64,000 bases of DNA from a bacterium (GTDB lineage: Bacteria > Bacillota > Clostridia > Oscillospirales > Acutalibacteraceae), in the NCBI GenBank assembly GCA_037368805.1, contig JAXYDM010000009.1, forward strand, positions 1,851 through 65,850. The letters run 5' to 3'. The notes under the pieces were generated by a model, which saw only the letters and a list, made by a program, of their open reading frames with translations, did not search any database and had not been told where the DNA came from. Position numbers and translations under genes: made by a program. Positions 32,929 to 38,245 of the stretch are shown in pieces; within the stretch, counting starts at the first letter, position 1; each line of letters begins with the position of its first letter.

Positions 32929-33477
32929 TTACTTCATTTCTTCTTCTATCAGCGAAAAATAAACACAGTCTTCAATGCCAAATTCGGTCTTGTCTCTCAT
33001 TCTTAATGTTGCTTCGTTTTTAAATCCGAGCCGTTGCAGGACATTTTGCGAACGGATATTGCTTTCGGCGGCAAATGTGACGATATTATTGTAGCCTATC
33101 TCGACAAACCCGTAGCGAAGAACGACCCTTACCGTCTCGGTGGCATATCCGTTCCCCCAAAAGCCCGAGCCGAAGCAATATGATATGAAGCCCACTCCGG
33201 CGGCGGGATTCTCGTCATACAGATATATCGTGCCGATCAGGCTGTCGTTCTCTTTCAAAAACACGCCCCAATAGCACTCGTTTTGGTCATAATATTCCTG
33301 CCACTTGCGCAAATAATCAACGACCTGCGCCTCGTCGCTGTATGTATCCCAGGACATATATCCCGAAACCTTTTTGTCGGAATAAACATTCTCAAACAAC
33401 TGTTTTGAGTCGCTAATTTCTAATTTTCTCATGTAACAGCGCCGTGATTCCAGCGCTTTTGTACCCGAGTGGTTCAT
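32929..33477 (-). CDS. GNAT family N-acetyltransferase (RimJ/RimL-like)
   Basis: 182 aa. Acetyl-CoA binding region FWGNGYATETVRVVLRYGF and a typical RimL-like layout. Confidence 0.8.
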   Translation of the reverse strand: MNHSGTKALESRRCYMRKLEISDSKQLFENVYSDKKVSGYMSWDTYSDEAQVVDYLRKWQEYYDQNECYWGVFLKENDSLIGTIYLYDENPAAGVGFISYCFGSGFWGNGYATETVRVVLRYGFVEIGYNNIVTFAAESNIRSQNVLQRLGFKNEATLRMRDKTEFGIEDCVYFSLIEEEMK

Positions 33478-33541
33478 TTTTGCTCCTTTTTTATTTTGGC
33501 CCTTGCCTTGTCAATAATCTAATAAGCACATATACACATTA

Positions 33542-33710
33542 GTGAAATATTTTGCATATGCAAAATGTGAAATAACCGCTCCGCGGTTGTGAAATTTTCT
33601 GCTTCGCAGAAAGTGAAATGAAATCCACCCGTCGCCGCAGCGATTTCACACGCCGTCAGGCGCATTTCACATTGCGAAGCAATATTTCACCCACCCGAAG
33701 GGTGGATTTC
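33542..33710. repeat. mirror array of 'GTGAAAT + unique mini-hairpin' modules
   Basis: GTGAAAT at 33542, 33567, 33589 and 33613. ATTTCAC at 33643, 33664 and 33684, plus a partial ATTTC at 33706. Every 13-18 nt spacer is itself a different perfect palindrome/hairpin. Confidence 0.8.
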
Positions 33711-33714
33711 GTTG

Positions 33715-33745
33715 AAAAAAGCACTTCCGAAGAAGTGCTTTTTTC
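33715..33745. terminator. bidirectional terminator-like hairpin
   Basis: AAAAAA GCACTTC cgaa GAAGTGC TTTTTT. On the minus strand the loop is a C(UUCG)G tetraloop. Confidence 0.7.
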
Positions 33746-33767
33746 TGGCGTCCCCGGCGGGATTCGA
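33742..33767 (-). repeat. 26-nt duplicate of the tRNA-Arg 3' end plus 4 nt of 3' flank (att-like scar)
   Basis: tttcTGGCGTCCCCGGCGGGATTCGA is identical to 33896-33921. It covers CCA, the acceptor 3' strand and half of the T-arm. No matching 5' acceptor strand lies nearby. Confidence 0.8.
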
Positions 33768-33860
33768 CTCGCGCGCCTGCGGGCGCTTGGTCGCTCGCGG
33801 TCACAACAGTCCACCGGACTGTTGCTCTGTACCGCTCGTCCTTCGAATCCCTCCTCACAT

Positions 33861-33898
33861 GAAAAGAAAGTGCCCGCCTCTAAAGAGGCAGGCACTTT
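33861..33898 (-). terminator. terminator directly after tRNA-Arg
   Basis: Stem AAAGTGCCCGCCTC (33867-33880) / GAGGCAGGCACTTT (33885-33898). T-rich run follows on the minus strand. Confidence 0.65.
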
Positions 33899-33899
33899 C

Positions 33900-33976
33900 T
33901 GGCGTCCCCGGCGGGATTCGAACCCACGGCCTTTCGCTTAGGAGGCGAACGCTCTATCCTGCTGAGCTACGGAGAC
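33900..33976 (-). tRNA. tRNA-Arg (anticodon CCU), CCA encoded
   Basis: Reverse complement is GTCTCCGTAGCTCAGCAGGATAGAGCGTTCGCCTCCTAAGCGAAAGGCCGTGGGTTCGAATCCCGCCGGGGACGCCA. Cloverleaf with anticodon loop CUCCUAA. Confidence 0.9.
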
Positions 33977-34089
33977 ATATTCACTTATTTATAGCTTAAT
34001 AAGTTTATCAAAAAAGCGGCGAAATGTCAAGGGGAAAAATTCCGGTCGGAAAAATTTTCATATTCGTTGAATTCGCCGATAAATAATGC

Positions 34090-34118
34090 TTGAAAAATTC
34101 GGCACAATAATATAAAAT
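34090..34118 (+). promoter_or_regulatory. candidate sigma-A promoter of the pgk operon
   Basis: TTGAAA (34090-34095), 17-nt spacer, TAAAAT (34113-34118). Confidence 0.45.
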
Positions 34119-34167
34119 ATATAATTGGTTAAGAATGTTTCAATAAAAACCGAAAGGAAGAAGAATT

Positions 34168-35379
34168 ATGAGCTTACTTAACAAGAAAACCGTAGACGAT
34201 ATTAATGCAAAGGGCAAGAGAGTTCTCGTGCGCTGCGACTTCAACGTCCCCCTCAAGGACGGCGTTATCACCGATGAGAACAGGATCAATGCGGCTCTTC
34301 CCACCATACAGAAGCTGATAAACGACGGCGCAAAGGTCATCCTCTGCTCCCATCTCGGCAAGCCCAAGAACGGCCCCGAGGCTAAGTTCTCCCTTGCACC
34401 CGTTGCAAAGAGACTCAGCGAGAAACTCGGCAAGGAAGTCGTTTTTGCCGCTGACGACAATGTTGTCGGCGACAATGCAAGGGCAGCCGTTGCCGCTATG
34501 AAGGACGGCGACGTAGTCCTGCTTGAGAACACCCGCTTCCGCCCCGAAGAGACCAAGAACGGCGAAGCCTTCTCCAAGGATCTCGCAAGCCTTTGCGACA
34601 TTTATGTCAACGACGCATTCGGCGCCGCTCACAGAGCTCACTGCTCCACCGTCGGCGTTACCGCATTCGTCAAGGAAGCCGCTGTCGGCTACCTCATGGG
34701 CAAGGAGCTCAAGTATCTCGGCAATGCTGTTGAGAATCCCGCAAGGCCCTTCGTCACCATCCTCGGCGGCGCAAAGGTTGCGGACAAGCTCAATGTTATC
34801 GACAACCTCCTCAACAAGGCGGACACCCTCATCATCGGCGGCGGCATGGCTTACACCTTCCTTGCGGCAAAGGGCTACGGCGTAGGCAGATCGCTCCTTG
34901 ACGAGAGCAAGATAGATTACTGCAAGGATATGCTCAAGAAGGCTGAGGACAAGGGCGTTAAGATCCTGCTGCCCATCGACGTGGTAGCCGCTCCCGACTT
35001 CCCGAACCCCATCGACGCACCCATCGAGGTCAGCACCTTTGACGCCGACGCTCTCCCCGCAGACATGGAAGGCCTCGACATCGGCCCCAAGACCGCGGAG
35101 CTTTTCGCAAACGAAGTCAAGACCGCCAAGACCGTCGTATGGAACGGCCCCATGGGCGTTTTTGAGAATCCCACCCTTGCAGCCGGCACCATCGCGGTCG
35201 CCAAGGCTCTTGCCGAGACCGACGCGGTCACCATCATCGGCGGCGGCGACAGCGCAGCGGCAGTCAATTCCCTGGGCTTCGGCGACAAGATGACCCATAT
35301 CTCCACCGGCGGCGGCGCATCGCTTGAATTCCTCGAGGGTAAGGCCCTCCCCGGCATCGAGGCTGTTAACGATAAATAA
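34168..35379 (+). CDS. pgk: phosphoglycerate kinase
   Basis: 403 aa. Contains [15 protein letters not shown] and GGGDSAAAV. Confidence 0.95.
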
Positions 35380-35388
35380 GTTGATACA

Positions 35389-35880
35389 ATGAAAAATGCA
35401 GATGCATTGCCCAAGCGGAAGCCTCTGAGGCTTAACGGATATGATTATTCTTCATGCGGAGCATACTTTATAACACTATGCGTCAAGGATAAACGCAGGA
35501 TTTTTTGGGAGAGCGTAGGGGCGAACTGTGTTCGCCCGGACATCGTTCCACTTTCAAGAATCGGGGAAATCGTTTCTCGGGAAATTCAAAAAATCAGCGT
35601 AATATATGACAATGTCGAAGTTGATAAATTTGTTGTCATGCCGAATCATGTCCATATGATATTGTCCATCCTTGCGGATGATCACGGGCGAACGCAGTTC
35701 GCCCCTACAGTATCGAGGGTAGTTAAGCAATTCAAGGGCTCCGTTACAAAACAAATCGGATTTTCTCCGTGGCAGCGCTCCTATCACGACCATGTGATAC
35801 GGAACGTGCGGGATTACGGGGAAATTTGGCAATACATTGACGAAAACCCGTTCCGTTGGGAATCGGATTGCTATTATTAA
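35389..35880 (+). CDS. RAYT / IS200-like Y1 HUH tyrosine transposase family protein
   Basis: 163 aa. HUH motif VMPNHVHMI. WQRSYHDHVIRNVRDYGEIWQYIDENP parallels E. coli RayT WQPRFWEHAIRNTKDY...DYIYINP (catalytic Tyr context). G+C is lower than pgk/tpiA by eye, and there is no SD. Confidence 0.8.
   Translation: MKNADALPKRKPLRLNGYDYSSCGAYFITLCVKDKRRIFWESVGANCVRPDIVPLSRIGEIVSREIQKISVIYDNVEVDKFVVMPNHVHMILSILADDHGRTQFAPTVSRVVKQFKGSVTKQIGFSPWQRSYHDHVIRNVRDYGEIWQYIDENPFRWESDCYY
35515..35538 (+). repeat. intragenic REP-like hairpin 1 (GTAG + 8-bp GC-rich stem)
   Basis: GTAG GGGCGAAC TGT GTTCGCCC G. Confidence 0.85.
35685..35708 (-). repeat. intragenic REP-like hairpin 2, inverted copy of hairpin 1
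   Basis: C GGGCGAAC GCA GTTCGCCC CTAC. This is the reverse complement of 35515-35538 apart from one loop base. Confidence 0.85.
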
Positions 35881-35899
35881 GTGAAAGGACAGTTAAATA

Positions 35900-36667
35900 A
35901 TGGACAAGTCACTTCGCAGACCCGTTATCGCGGGCAACTGGAAAATGAATAACACCCCCGAGCAGACCAAGGCGCTCATCGAGCAGATGAAGCCCCTTGT
36001 AGCGAACGCCGACTGCGACGTCGTTATCTGCGCCCCCTATATCGACCTCTATGCAGCCATGGAGGCAGCCGCAGGCTCCAACATCAAGATCGGTGCCGAG
36101 AACTGCCACTGGGCAGAGAAAGGCGCATTCACCGGCGAGGTTTCCGCCAATATGCTCAAGGCCGCAGGCGTGCCCTATGTCATCATCGGTCACTCCGAGC
36201 GCAGGCAGTATTTCGGCGAGACCGACGAGACCGTCCGCGACAGAGTCAGAGCTGCTCTGAACGCAGGCCTCAAGGTCATCCTCTGCGTGGGCGAAGTCCT
36301 CGAGGAGAGGCAGCTCGGCATCACCGCCGAGATAGTCAGGAAGCAGACCAAGGTCGCCCTCTCCGGCGTTTCCGAGGCTGAGCTTGCAAACATCATCATC
36401 GCCTATGAGCCTGTTTGGGCTATCGGCACCGGCCTGACCGCCACTCCGGAGCAGGCAAACGAGGTTTGCGCCGTTATCCGCGCTCTCGTCGCAGAGCTTT
36501 ACAGCAAGGACGCCGCGGATCATTTCGTTATCCAGTACGGCGGCTCGATGAACGACGGCAACGCTGCCGAGCTTCTTGCTCAGTATGACGTTGACGGCGG
36601 CCTTATCGGCGGCGCTTCACTCGTTGCTGAGAAATTCGCAAAGATAGTTGAAGCTGCAAGCAAATAA
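35900..36667 (+). CDS. tpiA: triosephosphate isomerase
   Basis: 255 aa. Contains AGNWKMN, IIGHSERR, YEPVWAIGTG. Confidence 0.95.
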   Translation: MDKSLRRPVIAGNWKMNNTPEQTKALIEQMKPLVANADCDVVICAPYIDLYAAMEAAAGSNIKIGAENCHWAEKGAFTGEVSANMLKAAGVPYVIIGHSERRQYFGETDETVRDRVRAALNAGLKVILCVGEVLEERQLGITAEIVRKQTKVALSGVSEAELANIIIAYEPVWAIGTGLTATPEQANEVCAVIRALVAELYSKDAADHFVIQYGGSMNDGNAAELLAQYDVDGGLIGGASLVAEKFAKIVEAASK

Positions 36668-36730
36668 TCGCAATTTCAGGGCGGGGGCGGAGTTTTCCGT
36701 TCCCGCCGTTTTGGGAAAGGATATGATATT

Positions 36731-38245
36731 ATGAGCAAAAGACCCGTTCTTCTTTGCATCATGGACGGCTTCGGCAAGAACGAAAGCACCTACGGCAACG
36801 CTATCGCCGCCGCAAAGAAGCCGAATCTTGATAAGATCGTCAGTGAGAATCCTATGACCTTTATCGGCGCGTCCGGCCTTGACGTCGGTCTTCCCGACGG
36901 TCAGATGGGCAACTCCGAGGTCGGCCACACCAACATCGGCGCCGGCAGAGTGGTCTATCAGGAGCTTACCAGGATCACAAAGTCCATTCAGGACGGCGAC
37001 TTTTTCACCAATGAAGCTCTCGTCGGCGCAATGGAGAACTGCAAAAAGAATTCCTCGGCTCTTCACCTGATGGGTCTTATGTCCGACGGCGGCGTTCACA
37101 GCCACAACACTCACCTCTACGGCATCATGGAGCTTGCCAAGCGCAGCGGCGTTGACAAGGTGTATATCCACTGCTTCATGGACGGCCGCGACGTGCCCCC
37201 CACCTCAGGCAAGGATTACCTCGCCGAGCTTTACAAGAAGTGCGACGAGATAGGCGTGGGCGAGATCGCAACCGTCATGGGCAGATACTACGCCATGGAC
37301 AGAGACAACCGCTGGGAGAGAGTCGTCAAGGCTTACAAGGCCATGACCGAGGGCGAGGGCGTTAAATTCGACTGCGCCTGCAAGATGATGGAGGAATCCT
37401 ACGCAAACGACGTGACCGATGAATTTATCGTGCCCGCAGTCTCTGAAAAAGCCGTTCCCGTCAAGGATAACGACTCGATCGTTTTCTTTAACTTCCGCCC
37501 CGACAGAGCGAGAGAGATCACCAGAGCCTTTGTCGACCCCGCATTCAGCGGCTTCGAGAGAGAGCAGCTCAAGGGTCTCTATTATGTCTGCATGACTCAG
37601 TACGACGCAACCATGCCGAACGTCCATGTAGCATTCAAGCCCGAGTCGCTTGAAAACACCTTCGGCGAGTATATCTCCGACAAGGGTCTCAAGCAGCTCA
37701 GGATTGCCGAGACCGAGAAATACGCTCATGTAACCTTCTTCTTCAACGGCGGCGTTGAGAAGCAGTACCCCGGCGAGGACAGGATCCTTGTCAAATCCCC
37801 CGCCGTCGCCACCTATGACCTCCAGCCCGAGATGAGCGCCTATGAAGTCACCGACAAGCTGCTTGCAGCCATCGACAGTGACAAATACGACGCCATCATC
37901 CTGAACTATGCGAACTGCGACATGGTCGGTCACACCGGCGTATTCGACGCAGCGGTCAAGGCCGTTGAAGCGGTCGACACCTGCGTAAGTAAGATAGTTG
38001 ACGCCGTTGCCGCAAAGGGCGGCGTGACACTCATCACCGCCGACCACGGCAACGCTGACAAGATGTATGAGGCGGACGGCTCGCCCTTCACGGCGCACAC
38101 GACCAACCCCGTGCCTTTCATCGTTGTCGGCTACCCCTGCGAGCTTCGTGAGGGCGGCAGGCTCTGCGATATCGCGCCCACCATGCTGAAGATAATGGGT
38201 CTTGAGCAGCCTAAAGAAATGACGGGCGTAAGCATCATCAAATAA
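36731..38245 (+). CDS. gpmI: 2,3-bisphosphoglycerate-independent phosphoglycerate mutase
   Basis: 504 aa. Contains LCIMDGFG, MGNSEVGHTNIGAGR, ADHGNA. Confidence 0.95.
   Translation: MSKRPVLLCIMDGFGKNESTYGNAIAAAKKPNLDKIVSENPMTFIGASGLDVGLPDGQMGNSEVGHTNIGAGRVVYQELTRITKSIQDGDFFTNEALVGAMENCKKNSSALHLMGLMSDGGVHSHNTHLYGIMELAKRSGVDKVYIHCFMDGRDVPPTSGKDYLAELYKKCDEIGVGEIATVMGRYYAMDRDNRWERVVKAYKAMTEGEGVKFDCACKMMEESYANDVTDEFIVPAVSEKAVPVKDNDSIVFFNFRPDRAREITRAFVDPAFSGFEREQLKGLYYVCMTQYDATMPNVHVAFKPESLENTFGEYISDKGLKQLRIAETEKYAHVTFFFNGGVEKQYPGEDRILVKSPAVATYDLQPEMSAYEVTDKLLAAIDSDKYDAIILNYANCDMVGHTGVFDAAVKAVEAVDTCVSKIVDAVAAKGGVTLITADHGNADKMYEADGSPFTAHTTNPVPFIVVGYPCELREGGRLCDIAPTMLKIMGLEQPKEMTGVSIIK

What the first reader, a model, noticed from the sequence alone, without database searches (positions are those of the whole stretch)
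35515..35708. Inverted pair of REP-like GTAG-hairpins inside the RAYT-like ORF; their two peptide read-outs are reverse-complement images
35515-35538 reads GTAG GGGCGAAC TGT GTTCGCCC G, and 35685-35708 reads C GGGCGAAC GCA GTTCGCCC CTAC. Each is an 8-bp GC-rich hairpin with a 3-nt loop. The second is the reverse complement of the first at all but one position, and that loop difference is a synonymous Thr codon change.

A GTAG/CTAC tetranucleotide at the foot of a GC-rich palindrome defines REP elements, the substrates of REP-associated tyrosine transposases. REPs normally flank rayT in inverted orientation. Here the inverted pair lies inside the coding sequence. It is translated as VGANCVRP (gta ggg gcg aac tgt gtt cgc ccg) and GRTQFAPT (ggg cga acg cag ttc gcc cct aca). 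The pair brackets the 146 nt that encode the HUH motif (VMPNHVHMI).

The same DNA word therefore serves as protein code in both orientations and as potential ssDNA/RNA structure. It could form two local hairpins, or a long-range stem of about 24 bp that loops out the HUH segment. VGA (GTAGGGGC) and APT (GCCCCTAC) are exact reverse complements. If these tripeptides are conserved in the family, as I vaguely recall for APT, the apparent protein motif may really be a nucleic-acid motif.

Possible roles are a self-recognition or autoregulatory site, a cis substrate for the HUH enzyme, or a self-excising segment. I saw no other GGGCGAAC..GTTCGCCC copy in this window.
Basis: partly seen in the sequence, partly recalled or inferred. 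Interest (0 to 1): 0.8.

Follow-up and report, generated by a model that had tools for sequence, protein, structure and literature searches.

The report
REP hairpins inside their transposase gene
Two copies of a small palindromic repeat (a REP element) lie in frame inside the gene for the enzyme that normally acts on such repeats, and they are conserved as DNA rather than as protein; REP insertions of this kind are already published for a related enzyme subclass.

Summary
Window 35515-35538 and 35685-35708 are 24-nt inverted copies with one loop mismatch. Each is GTAG plus a perfect 8-bp GC-rich stem and a 3-nt loop. Both lie inside a 163-aa HUH/Tyr (RAYT/TnpAREP-like) ORF between pgk and tpiA, and they bracket the HUH motif.

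- 75 of 81 homologous genes carry both hairpins at the same two loops.
- Stems change by compensatory substitutions.
- Arm 1 is read in two frames (VGANCVRP or xRGELCSP).
- Synonymous sites in the arms are nearly frozen (pS 0.00 in most pairs) while the rest of the gene is saturated (pS 0.6-0.9, dN/dS 0.02-0.28).
- Arm peptides covary as antisense images across diverse relatives.

The same hairpin is a dispersed repeat: 153 copies in 120 metagenome stretches, only 6 of them inside RAYT-like genes. It often flanks homologous genes.

This is not new in kind. Quentin et al. 2018 reported in-frame REP insertions inside subclass 2.4 tnpAREP genes.

What is added here is a fixed inverted pair around HUH in a Clostridia clade, strong nucleotide-level maintenance, and long-lived pgk-tpiA synteny. 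The function is untested. It is most likely a cis substrate or binding site of the encoded enzyme.

The parts
35389..35880 (+). RAYT/TnpAREP-like Y1 HUH nuclease gene (163 aa), inserted between pgk and tpiA
   Evidence: ORF. NCBIfam REP_Tyr_transpos scores 61 bits, below the 80-bit cut-off. PDB profile hit 4er8 TnpAREP, E 4.6e-8. Foldseek top hit 4ER8_A, E 3.9e-8, TM 0.61. dN/dS is 0.02-0.28 outside the arms. GC is 45% against 58% for the neighbours.
35515..35538 (+). Arm 1: REP copy (GTAG + GGGCGAAC-TGT-GTTCGCCC + G), with the GTAG strand being the sense strand; read as VGANCVRP (residues 43-50)
   Evidence: It encodes a low-confidence loop (pLDDT below 50) between strand 25-32 and helix 57-72. 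The same DNA is read in a second frame (xRGELCSP) in 28 of 75 homologues.
35539..35684 (+). 146-nt spacer between the arms, encoding helix 57-72, strand 76-83 and the HUH strand 87-94
   Evidence: HUH His87 and His89 are at 35647-35655 and are invariant in alignment A1.
35685..35708 (-). Arm 2: REP copy whose GTAG strand is the template (-) strand (GTAGGGGCGAACTGCGTTCGCCCG on -); read on + as (H)GRTQFAPT (residues 99-107)
   Evidence: It encodes the loop just before helix 108-123. The frame is the same in every homologue that has arm 2, and the arm sits at +67 or +70 from the HUH motif in most. Wobble positions are 84-100% conserved against a 53% mean elsewhere.
35833..35835 (+). Codon of the predicted catalytic tyrosine (Y149, in WQYIDENP)
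   Evidence: Invariant in A1. It lies in the segment aligned with E. coli TnpAREP VDYIYINP. Identification of that Tyr as the catalytic Y115 is from my own knowledge of 4ER8.
34168..35379 (+). pgk (phosphoglycerate kinase), upstream neighbour; its stop codon is 9 nt before the RAYT start
   Evidence: The pgk-RAYT-tpiA order is shared by 11-12 related genomes.
35900..36667 (+). tpiA (triose-phosphate isomerase), downstream neighbour; starts 19 nt after the RAYT stop
   Evidence: No terminator-like site lies between the three genes.

Best explanation
The two hairpins are genuine copies of a GTAG-type REP element. Each is a 24-nt, in-frame insertion of 8 codons in a surface loop of the REP-associated Y1 HUH nuclease that the gene encodes. 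One sits in the loop between the first strand and the first long helix. The other sits between the HUH strand and the following helix. They are oriented with their GTAG ends outward, so each DNA strand carries one 'active-orientation' REP (GTAG 5' of the hairpin).

Shown:
- They are conserved as DNA, not as peptide.
- Each hairpin is kept paired by compensatory changes.
- The enzyme is under purifying selection and keeps its HUH, Tyr and most GTAG-contacting residues.
- The same hairpin is a dispersed and gene-flanking repeat in related genomes.
- The gene has sat between pgk and tpiA through roughly saturating synonymous divergence.

Inferred:
- The arms are held to the REP consensus because they remain binding or cleavage substrates of the encoded enzyme on single-stranded DNA. 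Arm 1 would act on the sense strand and arm 2 on the template strand.
- They therefore behave as a built-in REP doublet that physically links the enzyme to its substrate and probably lets the enzyme act on, or sense, its own gene in cis.
- Autoregulation is the most economical guess for the role.

The encoded octapeptides are tolerated loop filler.
For: Architecture: the hairpins match the REP format of PMC8266576 and the subclass 2.4 REPs listed by Quentin et al., for example GTAGGGGCGACCCGGCGGGTCGCCC and GTAGGGGCAAATTACATTTGCCC.

Recurrence: 75 of 81 homologous genes have both arms, and 61 of those 75 have the same stem type in both. Arm 1 occurs in two frames, 47 against 28.

Hairpin covariation: 97.5% of cells are paired. 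There are 42 double-change cells against 9.9 ± 2.5 in shuffles (0 of 500 reach the observed value).

Frozen synonymous sites: arm pS is 0.00 in most syntenic pairs, against 0.6-0.9 elsewhere. Within the xRGE-frame clade the medians are 0.07 against 0.75. Arm 2 wobble conservation is 0.84-1.00 against 0.53.

Peptide antisense covariation: 3.17 of 4 positions against 1.38 ± 0.13 in shuffles, over 41 distinct pairs.

Insertion nature: homologues without REP peptides have loops roughly 5-9 aa shorter (loop 1 14-19 aa against a mode of 23; loop 2 17-18 against a mode of 24). The arm-1 region is absent from the alignment with E. coli TnpAREP. Both arms map to loops in the model.

REP identity: there are 153 exact copies in 120 metagenome stretches, 146 of them away from any RAYT-like gene, 1 within 300 nt of one and 6 inside one. 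27 of 80 loci have a REP within 200 nt downstream of the gene.

Strand symmetry: the recurrent G·T wobble (…CGTCC) sits on the GTAG strand in both arms. On the mRNA this makes arm 2 an A·C mismatch.

Enzyme competence: dN/dS is 0.02-0.28. H87, H89, Y149, W128, Q129 and R138 are invariant and H135 is largely conserved (H or R). They line up with the E. coli GTAG-binding residues W94, Q95, H101 and R104.

Anecdotes of breakpoints at the arms: a 5'-truncated copy starts exactly at the arm-1 GTAG (L011). An isolated arm1-HUH-arm2 module follows a full gene (L027).
Against: There is no biochemical or expression evidence of any kind.

No other REP copy lies in the 64-kb window, so it is unknown whether this genome has a REP population at all.

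Frozen synonymous sites could also result from homogenisation against a REP pool rather than from selection on a function at this locus.

Some relatives lack one or both arms, or carry REPs in the opposite orientation or as extra copies in the same loops. This fits tolerated insertion as well as designed function.

Quentin et al. regarded such insertions as probably neutral.

In 14 of 75 genes the two arms differ in stem type. If the enzyme acts on both, it must tolerate variants.
Confidence: 0.55

Rival explanations
1. Passenger insertions with concerted evolution. REPs were inserted into the two permissive loops because the enzyme acts preferentially near its own gene. They have no function there. 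They look 'fresh' because they are repeatedly overwritten from the genome's REP pool, by gene conversion, RAYT-mediated strand exchange or re-insertion.
For: There is presence/absence variation, and some relatives have opposite orientations, extra copies and tandem expansions in the same two loops.

An 87-nt insertion lies inside the arm-2 loop in L013.

REPs cluster right next to the gene in many loci, as reported for Marinomonas REPtrons.

About half of the external REPs share the stem type of an internal arm.

Quentin et al. favour neutrality.
Against: Position and frame of the arms are stable within clades across saturated synonymous divergence. That argues against frequent re-insertion.

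The syntenic pgk-tpiA loci and the 64-kb window show few or no external REPs of the same stem type nearby. A donor pool is therefore not evident, although whole genomes could not be examined.
Confidence: 0.28
2. mRNA-level element. The hairpins, or the 24-bp long-range duplex that loops out the HUH segment, act in the transcript. Possible effects are an RNase III target, a translation brake or a stability element that keeps RAYT expression low.
For: The long-range stem is the predicted minimum-free-energy structure for both RNA (-81.8 kcal/mol, z -5.4) and DNA (-43 kcal/mol, z -5.4).

The arms are usually identical in stem type (61 of 75).

REPs are known to affect mRNA stability and translation (background in PMC6006769).
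Against: When the arms differ, most keep their own local stem paired rather than staying complementary to each other. Examples are L001-4, L036, L053, L056 and L074.

The recurrent wobble is G·T on the GTAG strand of both arms, which is A·C for arm 2 in the mRNA.

GTAG and the five basal stem pairs are conserved in sequence, not merely paired.
Confidence: 0.1
3. Self-excising or invertible segment. The enzyme cuts at the two inverted REPs and removes or flips the HUH-coding 146-194 nt, switching its own gene off.
For: A REP doublet with outward GTAGs resembles a REPIN.

An isolated arm1-HUH-arm2 module occurs in L027.

A truncation lies exactly at the arm-1 GTAG in L011.

Quentin et al. note that 'double-foot' REPs could arise by central deletion of an inverted dimer.
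Against: No homologue was found in which the segment is cleanly missing and a single hairpin is left.

Inversion would place a TGA immediately after arm 1 (read).

The L027 fragment extends 5 codons beyond arm 2, so it looks like a decayed gene remnant.

The apparent module in L158 was only an intergenic REP cluster.
Confidence: 0.05
4. Protein-level conservation. VGANCVRP and GRTQFAPT are functional peptide motifs, and their reverse-complement relation is a coincidence.
For: G44, R49, G100, R101, A105 and P106 are invariant in the small alignment A1.
Against: Arm 1 is read in two frames that give unrelated peptides.

Wobble positions are frozen.

The two peptides covary as antisense images through at least 17 stem types.

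Relatives lacking the peptides have correspondingly shorter loops.

The arm-1 loop is modelled as disordered.
Confidence: 0.02

Closest known systems
Subclass 2.4 TnpAREP (= RAYT Group 4) with REP insertions inside the tnpAREP gene (Quentin et al. 2018, BMC Genomics 19:475, PMC6006769)
   Same: REP copies lie inside the transposase gene without breaking the frame, in the loop after the HUH strand (β3/αC). There is an additional 8-aa insertion upstream. The REPs are of the GTAG+GGGC… perfect-stem type. There is no C-terminal extension. The genes are also flanked by REPs.
   Different: That paper describes variable insertions 'generally between HuH and Y' in mainly cyanobacterial and Bacteroidetes genes and treats them as probably neutral.

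Here a Clostridia clade carries a fixed inverted pair that brackets the HUH segment. The pair is held at the same sites, with frozen synonymous positions, across saturated divergence.

The HuH-Y distance is about 60 aa here, against a median of 88 for subclass 2.4.

Assignment with the authors' HMMs could not be done.
Group 3 REPtron of Stenotrophomonas maltophilia (REPSm/TnpASm; Corneloup et al. 2021, PMC8266576)
   Same: The REP has the same format: GTAG directly followed by a perfect 8-bp palindrome with a 3-nt loop (23 nt). It is recognised as a single-stranded hairpin. Only the GTAG-strand orientation is active. A perfect stem is required.
   Different: REPSm copies are extragenic and flank the gene. 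Nothing is reported inside tnpASm. The protein belongs to a different subclass (2.5).
REPINs (inverted REP doublets; Bertels & Rainey 2011, PMC3116915)
   Same: Two REPs lie in inverted orientation and can pair into a long hairpin. They are associated with a single-copy, vertically inherited RAYT.
   Different: REPIN spacers are non-coding. Here the 146-nt spacer encodes the catalytic HUH segment of the RAYT itself. No dispersed copies of the whole doublet were found, apart from one doubtful remnant in L027.
In-frame palindromic elements in protein genes (intragenic GTAG/CGTC REPs, Rickettsia RPEs; Di Nocera et al. 2013, PMC3733652)
   Same: Short palindromic repeats are inserted in frame into loops of functional proteins. 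Dimers and grouped repeats encode about 20-30 aa, and single copies such as the 8-codon arms here encode fewer.
   Different: Those hosts are unrelated genes such as uvrA, recB and polA, and the insertions are lineage-specific. Here the host is the cognate enzyme, and the sites are conserved across a large family.
Rolling-circle initiators whose nick site lies inside their own gene (phiX174 gene A, pT181 repC) - from my own knowledge, not checked here
   Same: A nuclease that acts on single-stranded DNA carries its recognition site within its own coding sequence. This favours action in cis.
   Different: Those sites are replication origins with a demonstrated function, and the proteins are not Y1 transposase relatives.

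Membership tests
REP element (GTAG-type repetitive extragenic palindrome) | GT[AG]G tetranucleotide 0-2 nt 5' of a GC-rich hairpin (stem of at least 7 bp, loop 2-5 nt, GC-rich base) | tested here: met
   GTAG + GGGCGAAC/GTTCGCCC + 3-nt loop in both arms. The rule is as stated in PMC6006769.
REP element (GTAG-type repetitive extragenic palindrome) | Repeated and dispersed, mostly outside genes | tested here: inconclusive
   There are no other copies in this 64-kb window, and the whole genome was not available. In other assemblies the exact hairpin is dispersed: 153 copies in 120 metagenome stretches, only 6 of them inside RAYT-like genes. There are also 69 external copies in 458 kb of homologous loci.
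REP element (GTAG-type repetitive extragenic palindrome) | Hairpin maintained by compensatory change | tested here: met
   97.5% of cells are paired. There are 42 double-change cells against 9.9 ± 2.5 in shuffles, and 4 pair types at column 11-17.
RAYT / TnpAREP (REP-associated Y1 HUH nuclease) | HUH motif and catalytic Tyr on the IS200-like fold | tested here: met
   H87, H89 and Y149 are invariant. Foldseek top hit is 4ER8_A, E 3.9e-8. PDB profile hit is 4er8, E 4.6e-8.
RAYT / TnpAREP (REP-associated Y1 HUH nuclease) | Passes curated family thresholds | tested here: not met
   NCBIfam NF047646 scores 61.3 bits against a cut-off of 80. Pfam Y1_Tnp scores 17 bits against 23. The protein is a divergent relative, not a model-level member of the E. 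coli-type equivalog.
RAYT / TnpAREP (REP-associated Y1 HUH nuclease) | Residues that contact GTAG (E. coli W94, Q95, W99, E100, H101, R104) | tested here: met
   W128, Q129, H135 and R138 align with W94, Q95, H101 and R104. W99 is replaced by H133 and E100 by D134 (alignment; residue list from PMC6006769 Fig. S11).
RAYT / TnpAREP (REP-associated Y1 HUH nuclease) | Gene flanked by cognate REPs (REPtron) | tested here: not met
   There are no flanking REPs in this window; the intergenic gaps are 9 and 19 nt. The feature is met in many homologous loci: 27 of 80 have a REP downstream and 8 of 80 upstream.
RAYT / TnpAREP (REP-associated Y1 HUH nuclease) | Binds and cleaves single-stranded REP DNA | not testable with these tools
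   Requires purified protein with EMSA and cleavage assays.
Subclass 2.4 TnpAREP / RAYT Group 4 with intragenic REPs (Quentin 2018) | REP copies inside the gene, in frame, in the β3/αC loop | tested here: met
   Arm 2 lies in the loop between the HUH strand 87-94 and helix 108-123.
Subclass 2.4 TnpAREP / RAYT Group 4 with intragenic REPs (Quentin 2018) | REP type GTAG + stem starting with three G-C pairs; no C-terminal extension after the core | tested here: met
   The GGGCG… stem matches listed 2.4 REPs. The protein ends 14 residues after Y149.
Subclass 2.4 TnpAREP / RAYT Group 4 with intragenic REPs (Quentin 2018) | HuH-Y distance enlarged (median 88 aa) | tested here: not met
   The distance from H89 to Y149 is 60 aa. 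This is within the 58-67 range of most other subclasses.
Subclass 2.4 TnpAREP / RAYT Group 4 with intragenic REPs (Quentin 2018) | Assignment by the authors' subclass HMM or tree | not testable with these tools
   The profiles are not available. The supplementary sequences of Bertels 2017 are not held.
REPIN | Two inverted REPs with a short non-coding spacer, replicated as a unit in many copies | tested here: not met
   An inverted REP pair is present, but the spacer is 146 nt of coding sequence. No dispersed copies of the unit were found. The only candidate (L027) extends beyond arm 2.
IS200/IS605 insertion sequence | Subterminal hairpins outside the tnpA ORF that define mobile ends; multicopy | tested here: not met
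   The hairpins are inside the ORF. There is a single copy in the window. The location is syntenic in 11-12 genomes with saturated pS in the neighbouring genes.

The most novel reading that the evidence does not exclude
The internal REP pair is not a tolerated passenger but a selected cis-element. The enzyme recognises its own coding DNA, with arm 1 on the sense strand and arm 2 on the template strand. That recognition feeds back on its own expression or integrity. It also keeps enzyme specificity and substrate sequence physically linked, making the gene a 'self-addressed' nuclease gene whose substrate code is written into two of its own loops and co-evolves with it.
Probability: 0.3. Interest if true: 0.7.

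Novelty: new member of a known kind. Interest (0 to 1): 0.42.

Why it matters
How REPs spread, and why bacteria keep single-copy RAYT genes, are still open questions. Intragenic REPs in tnpAREP genes have been noted once and set aside as probably neutral.

This locus and its 80 relatives show that the internal copies are kept at nucleotide level. Synonymous sites are frozen, stems are compensated, and two reading frames are used. This holds over divergence that saturates the rest of the gene, at a stable chromosomal site inside a glycolytic operon.

That makes the question testable. Recode the arms synonymously, assay binding and cleavage strand by strand, and ask whether a RAYT senses or processes its own gene.

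There is also a practical lesson. The 'conserved motifs' VGAxxxRP and GRxxxAPT in this large protein family, and many short 'hypothetical proteins' with similar peptides, are translation read-outs of a DNA repeat. They should not be read as functional protein motifs.

Tried and rejected
- Literature search by sequence strings (GTAGGGGCG, GRTQFAPT, VGANCVRP and others) gave only unrelated hits.
- Word searches in Nunvar 2010, Bertels 2017 and Corneloup 2021 for REPs inside the gene found nothing. The relevant statement was found only in Quentin 2018.
- An Rfam scan of 33000-37000 found no family for the hairpins.
- L158 looked like a possible mobilised arm1-HUH-arm2 unit. It turned out to be an intergenic REP cluster whose translation mimics the arm peptides.
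- The inversion-switch idea was rejected. Flipping the spacer places TGA directly after arm 1.
- The long-range 24-bp stem as the selected structure was tested against homologues. Arms that differ from each other usually remain locally paired, so local hairpins are the conserved unit even though the long stem is the thermodynamic optimum.
- The protein-motif explanation was rejected.
- I tried to obtain Group 4/2.4 reference sequences for a direct membership test. The Bertels supplement is not held.
- Whole-genome REP counts could not be made.
Full report
**1. The observation**

Reading the window gives 35515-35538 = GTAG GGGCGAAC TGT GTTCGCCC G and 35685-35708 = C GGGCGAAC GCA GTTCGCCC CTAC.

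The repeat finder reports a 24-nt inverted repeat, 96% complementary, 146 nt apart. It also reports two local 8-bp perfect palindromes with 3-nt loops. The only difference is one loop base, and it is synonymous in both arms.

Both arms lie in ORF 35389-35880 (+), 163 aa. They read VGANCVRP (residues 43-50) and GRTQFAPT (100-107). The HUH motif MPNHVH (35638-35655) lies between them.

The ORF sits 9 nt after pgk (34168-35379) and 19 nt before tpiA (35900-36667). No other copy of the hairpin is in the 64 kb, even with 3 mismatches allowed. A general scan for GT[AG]G-tagged GC-rich hairpins finds only these two. There is also only one RAYT-like gene in the window.

**2. The host gene**

The protein scores below the curated thresholds of Pfam Y1_Tnp (17 against 23 bits) and NCBIfam REP_Tyr_transpos (61 against 80 bits).

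A profile of it and its relatives hits E. coli TnpAREP (4er8) at E 4.6e-8. An AlphaFold model (mean pLDDT 78) has 4ER8_A, 'REP associated tyrosine transposase bound to a REP hairpin', as best structural match (E 3.9e-8, TM 0.61). IS608, ISDra2 and IS200 transposases follow.

H87, H89 and Y149 are invariant. W128, Q129, H135 and R138 align with the E. coli residues W94, Q95, H101 and R104, which contact GTAG.

Outside the arms dN/dS is 0.02-0.28, so the protein is under purifying selection. It is a divergent but apparently competent Y1 HUH nuclease of the RAYT/TnpAREP kind.

**3. DNA motif or protein motif?**

I collected 80 homologous loci from species-representative genomes. They are mostly Acutalibacteraceae, Oscillospiraceae, Faecousia and Ruminococcus, with proteins 49-72% identical to the window protein.

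*Recurrence.* An unbiased search for the best inverted repeat between the regions upstream and downstream of HUH recovers the same GTAG-hairpin pair in nearly all loci. A motif scan finds both arms in 75 of 81 genes.

Four lines of evidence show that DNA, not peptide, is conserved.

(a) *Frames.* Arm 1 is read as VGANCVRP in 47 genes. In 28 genes the same nucleotides are read one base out of register, as xRGELCSP. The third frame would contain TAG. Arm 2 has one frame throughout.

(b) *Synonymous sites.* In a codon alignment, the wobble bases of arm-2 codons are 84-100% conserved. The gene-wide mean is 53%, and invariant residues such as P85 or G117 have fully scrambled third positions. Between the window and syntenic relatives, pS is 0.60-0.86 in the rest of the gene but 0.00 in the arms for most pairs. 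Within the xRGE-frame clade the medians are 0.75 against 0.07.

(c) *Hairpin covariation.* Over 45 distinct arm sequences, 97.5% of stem cells pair. There are 42 double (compensatory) changes against 9.9 ± 2.5 in shuffles (0 of 500). All four pair types occur at one stem position. GTAG and the basal GGGCG/CGCCC are nearly invariant. The three apical pairs and the loop vary.

(d) *Antisense covariation of the peptides.* The family is large: 32,417 50%-identity clusters at E ≤ 1e-3. In the 150 most similar clusters plus the 120 closest proteins, the middle four residues of the two octapeptides are codon-complementary at 3.17 of 4 positions. Shuffled pairings give 1.38 ± 0.13. Examples are VGADIIRP/GRMISAPT, VGAAFCRP/GRQNAAPT, VGAGSARP/GRADPAPT, VGDGLARP/GRASPSPT and VGAPIGRP/GRPMGAPT.

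**4. The hairpin is a REP**

The format is GTAG directly followed by a perfect 8-bp palindrome with a 3-nt loop. This is exactly the format of the biochemically characterised S. maltophilia REP. That REP is bound and cleaved as single-stranded DNA only in the GTAG orientation, and it needs a perfect stem (PMC8266576).

Of 153 copies in them, 146 lie away from any RAYT-like gene, 1 lies within 300 nt of one and 6 lie inside one. Flanks are unrelated and loops are varied.

In the 80 genome loci there are 69 further copies outside the genes. 27 loci have one or two within 200 nt downstream of the stop, and 8 have one just upstream. This is the classical REPtron arrangement. L043, which lacks the internal arms, has the same hairpin on both sides of the gene.

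**5. Insertions in two loops**

Relatives without REP-type peptides have shorter loops. Loop 1 is 14-19 aa against a mode of 23, and loop 2 is 17-18 aa against a mode of 24. That is roughly the 8 codons of one 24-nt REP.

The arm-1 region has no counterpart in E. coli TnpAREP. In the model, arm 1 is a low-confidence loop between strand 25-32 and helix 57-72. Arm 2 is the loop between the HUH strand and helix 108-123.

Other relatives carry REPs in the opposite orientation, in other frames (…GEHCSPL…, …RANTVRPY…), or as several or tandem copies in the same two loops. L013 has an 87-nt insertion inside the loop of the arm-2 hairpin.

**6. Local hairpins or a long stem? DNA or RNA?**

Thermodynamically the 24-bp long-range stem is the optimum, for DNA (-43 kcal/mol, z -5.4) and for RNA (-81.8 kcal/mol, z -5.4).

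The comparative data point to the local hairpin as the conserved unit. In 14 of 75 genes the arms differ in stem type. Examples are L001-4 (GAAC against GACC), L036, L053, L056 and L074. In most of these each arm remains internally paired.

The recurrent non-Watson-Crick pair is G·T, and it lies on the GTAG strand in both arms (…CGTCC). In the mRNA this makes arm 2 an A·C mismatch. This symmetry about the two DNA strands fits recognition of single-stranded DNA better than an mRNA structure. Shared ancestry of these variants weakens the argument.

**7. History of the locus**

In 11-12 of the 80 genomes the gene lies between pgk and tpiA, as it does here. pgk and tpiA differ from the window at pS 0.49-0.66 and pN 0.03-0.09. 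The RAYT differs at pS 0.60-0.86 and pN 0.18-0.34.

The gene has therefore been at this site for a long time, or has been replaced there repeatedly. It evolves fast at protein level and carries different stem types in different lineages: GAAC, GACC and GCCC. Its G+C content is 45% against 58% for its neighbours. No terminator-like site separates the three genes. Position and frame of the arms are stable within clades, which argues against frequent re-insertion.

**8. Hints that the arms are breakpoints (anecdotal)**

In L011 a 5'-truncated second copy begins exactly at the GTAG of arm 1. It is joined to a 46-nt flank that, upstream of the full-length copy, is followed by GTAGG.

In L027 a stand-alone arm1-HUH-arm2 piece of a different stem type (GATT) follows the stop codon of a complete gene. 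It runs 5 codons past arm 2, so it may be a decayed remnant.

No homologue with the segment cleanly excised was seen.

**9. Comparison with what is known**

Quentin et al. [quoted passage not shown] They also mention an extra 8-aa insertion upstream and judge the insertions probably harmless.

Their Table S1 lists 2.4 REPs of the same make, for example GTAGGGGCGACCCGGCGGGTCGCCC, H. influenzae GTAGGGGCAAATTACATTTGCCC and the 'double-foot' GTAGGGGCGAACGGCCGTTCGCCCCTAC. Subclass 2.4 equals Bertels' RAYT Group 4.

The present gene shares with 2.4 the REP type, the β3/αC insertion site and the lack of a C-terminal extension. It does not share the enlarged HuH-Y spacing (60 against a median of 88 aa). 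Formal assignment needs the authors' HMMs.

In-frame REPs in unrelated genes are also known (PMC3733652). The kind of thing is therefore published.

New here are:
- the fixed inverted pair bracketing HUH in a large Clostridia clade;
- quantitative proof of nucleotide-level maintenance;
- the two-frame reading of arm 1;
- the pgk-tpiA synteny.

**10. Mechanism and verdict**

*Shown.* These are in-frame REP copies, maintained as DNA hairpins, in a selected Y1 HUH gene.

*Inferred.* They persist because they remain substrates or binding sites of the encoded enzyme on single-stranded DNA, one per strand. That gives cis recognition of its own gene, and autoregulation is the most economical role (confidence about 0.55).

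*Main rival.* They are functionless passengers kept uniform by conversion from a REP pool (about 0.28). This could not be excluded, because no whole genome could be scanned.

*Weaker rivals.* An mRNA-level role (about 0.1) and a self-excision or inversion switch (about 0.05) are less well supported. A protein-motif explanation is refuted.

I rate the finding as a new member of a known kind, of moderate interest (0.42).

Noticed in passing
window 33540-33624 (+) and 33638-33714 (-): Two copies of Gut-1 RNA (Rfam RF01706) in opposite orientation, scoring 52.4 and 87.6 bits (gathering score 50). They lie just upstream of a tRNA gene and the pgk operon.
   Followed up: no
window 33900-33976 (-): tRNA-Arg (anticodon CCT), followed by a strong terminator-like hairpin at 33900-33865 (-).
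   Followed up: no
window 35389-35880: The RAYT-like ORF is much more AT-rich than its neighbours: 45% G+C (42.6% without the two arms) against 58% for pgk and tpiA. Even so, it is syntenic with them in 11-12 genomes. The pgk stop and the RAYT start are 9 nt apart and in the same frame, and no obvious Shine-Dalgarno sequence precedes the ATG.
   Followed up: partly
window 35633-35660 (+): A promoter-like match (TTGTCA-16 nt-TATGAT, 10 of 12) lies inside the RAYT ORF over the HUH codons. It may be chance in AT-rich sequence, or an internal promoter for tpiA.
   Followed up: no
L011 1965-2364 and 2838-3471 (Sporanaerobacter chromosome NZ_CP181252.1): A 5'-truncated second gene copy starts exactly at the GTAG of arm 1. 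It is fused to a flank containing the hairpin GATACGG-TGAA-CCGTATC followed by ATAAGTAGG. The same flank lies about 130 nt upstream of the full-length copy.
   Followed up: partly
L027 3592-3812, and 912-1409: An isolated arm1-HUH-arm2 fragment of a different REP stem type (GGGCGATT/AATCGCCC; VGAIINRP…GRLIIAPT) lies directly after the stop of a complete gene. A third, 42%-identical paralogue with its own stem type (GGGCGGGG/TCCCGCCC) lies upstream. Several RAYT paralogues, each with its own internal REP variant, are thus clustered in one genome.
   Followed up: partly
L013 3285-3395: An in-frame 87-nt insertion sits inside the loop of the arm-2 hairpin and splits GGGCGAA…GTTCGCCCCTAC. A REP doublet lies downstream of the gene.
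   Followed up: no
proteins P0246, P0161, P0137, P0251, P0188, P0189: Some family members have long tandem expansions of REP-derived or partial-REP peptides in the same two loops, for example repeated GRLIIAPTDGNG or PHDSPINR. The loops seem prone to repeat amplification.
   Followed up: no
L024 3001-3474 and 3789-4262: Two tandem gene copies with identical translations over the region shown, each with both internal arms.
   Followed up: no
L158 180-390 (termite-gut metagenome): An intergenic BIME-like cluster of four or five REPs of two stem types lies between convergent genes. Its translation mimics the RAYT arm peptides and produces spurious tblastn hits. This is a caution for annotation of short 'hypothetical proteins'.
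   Followed up: yes
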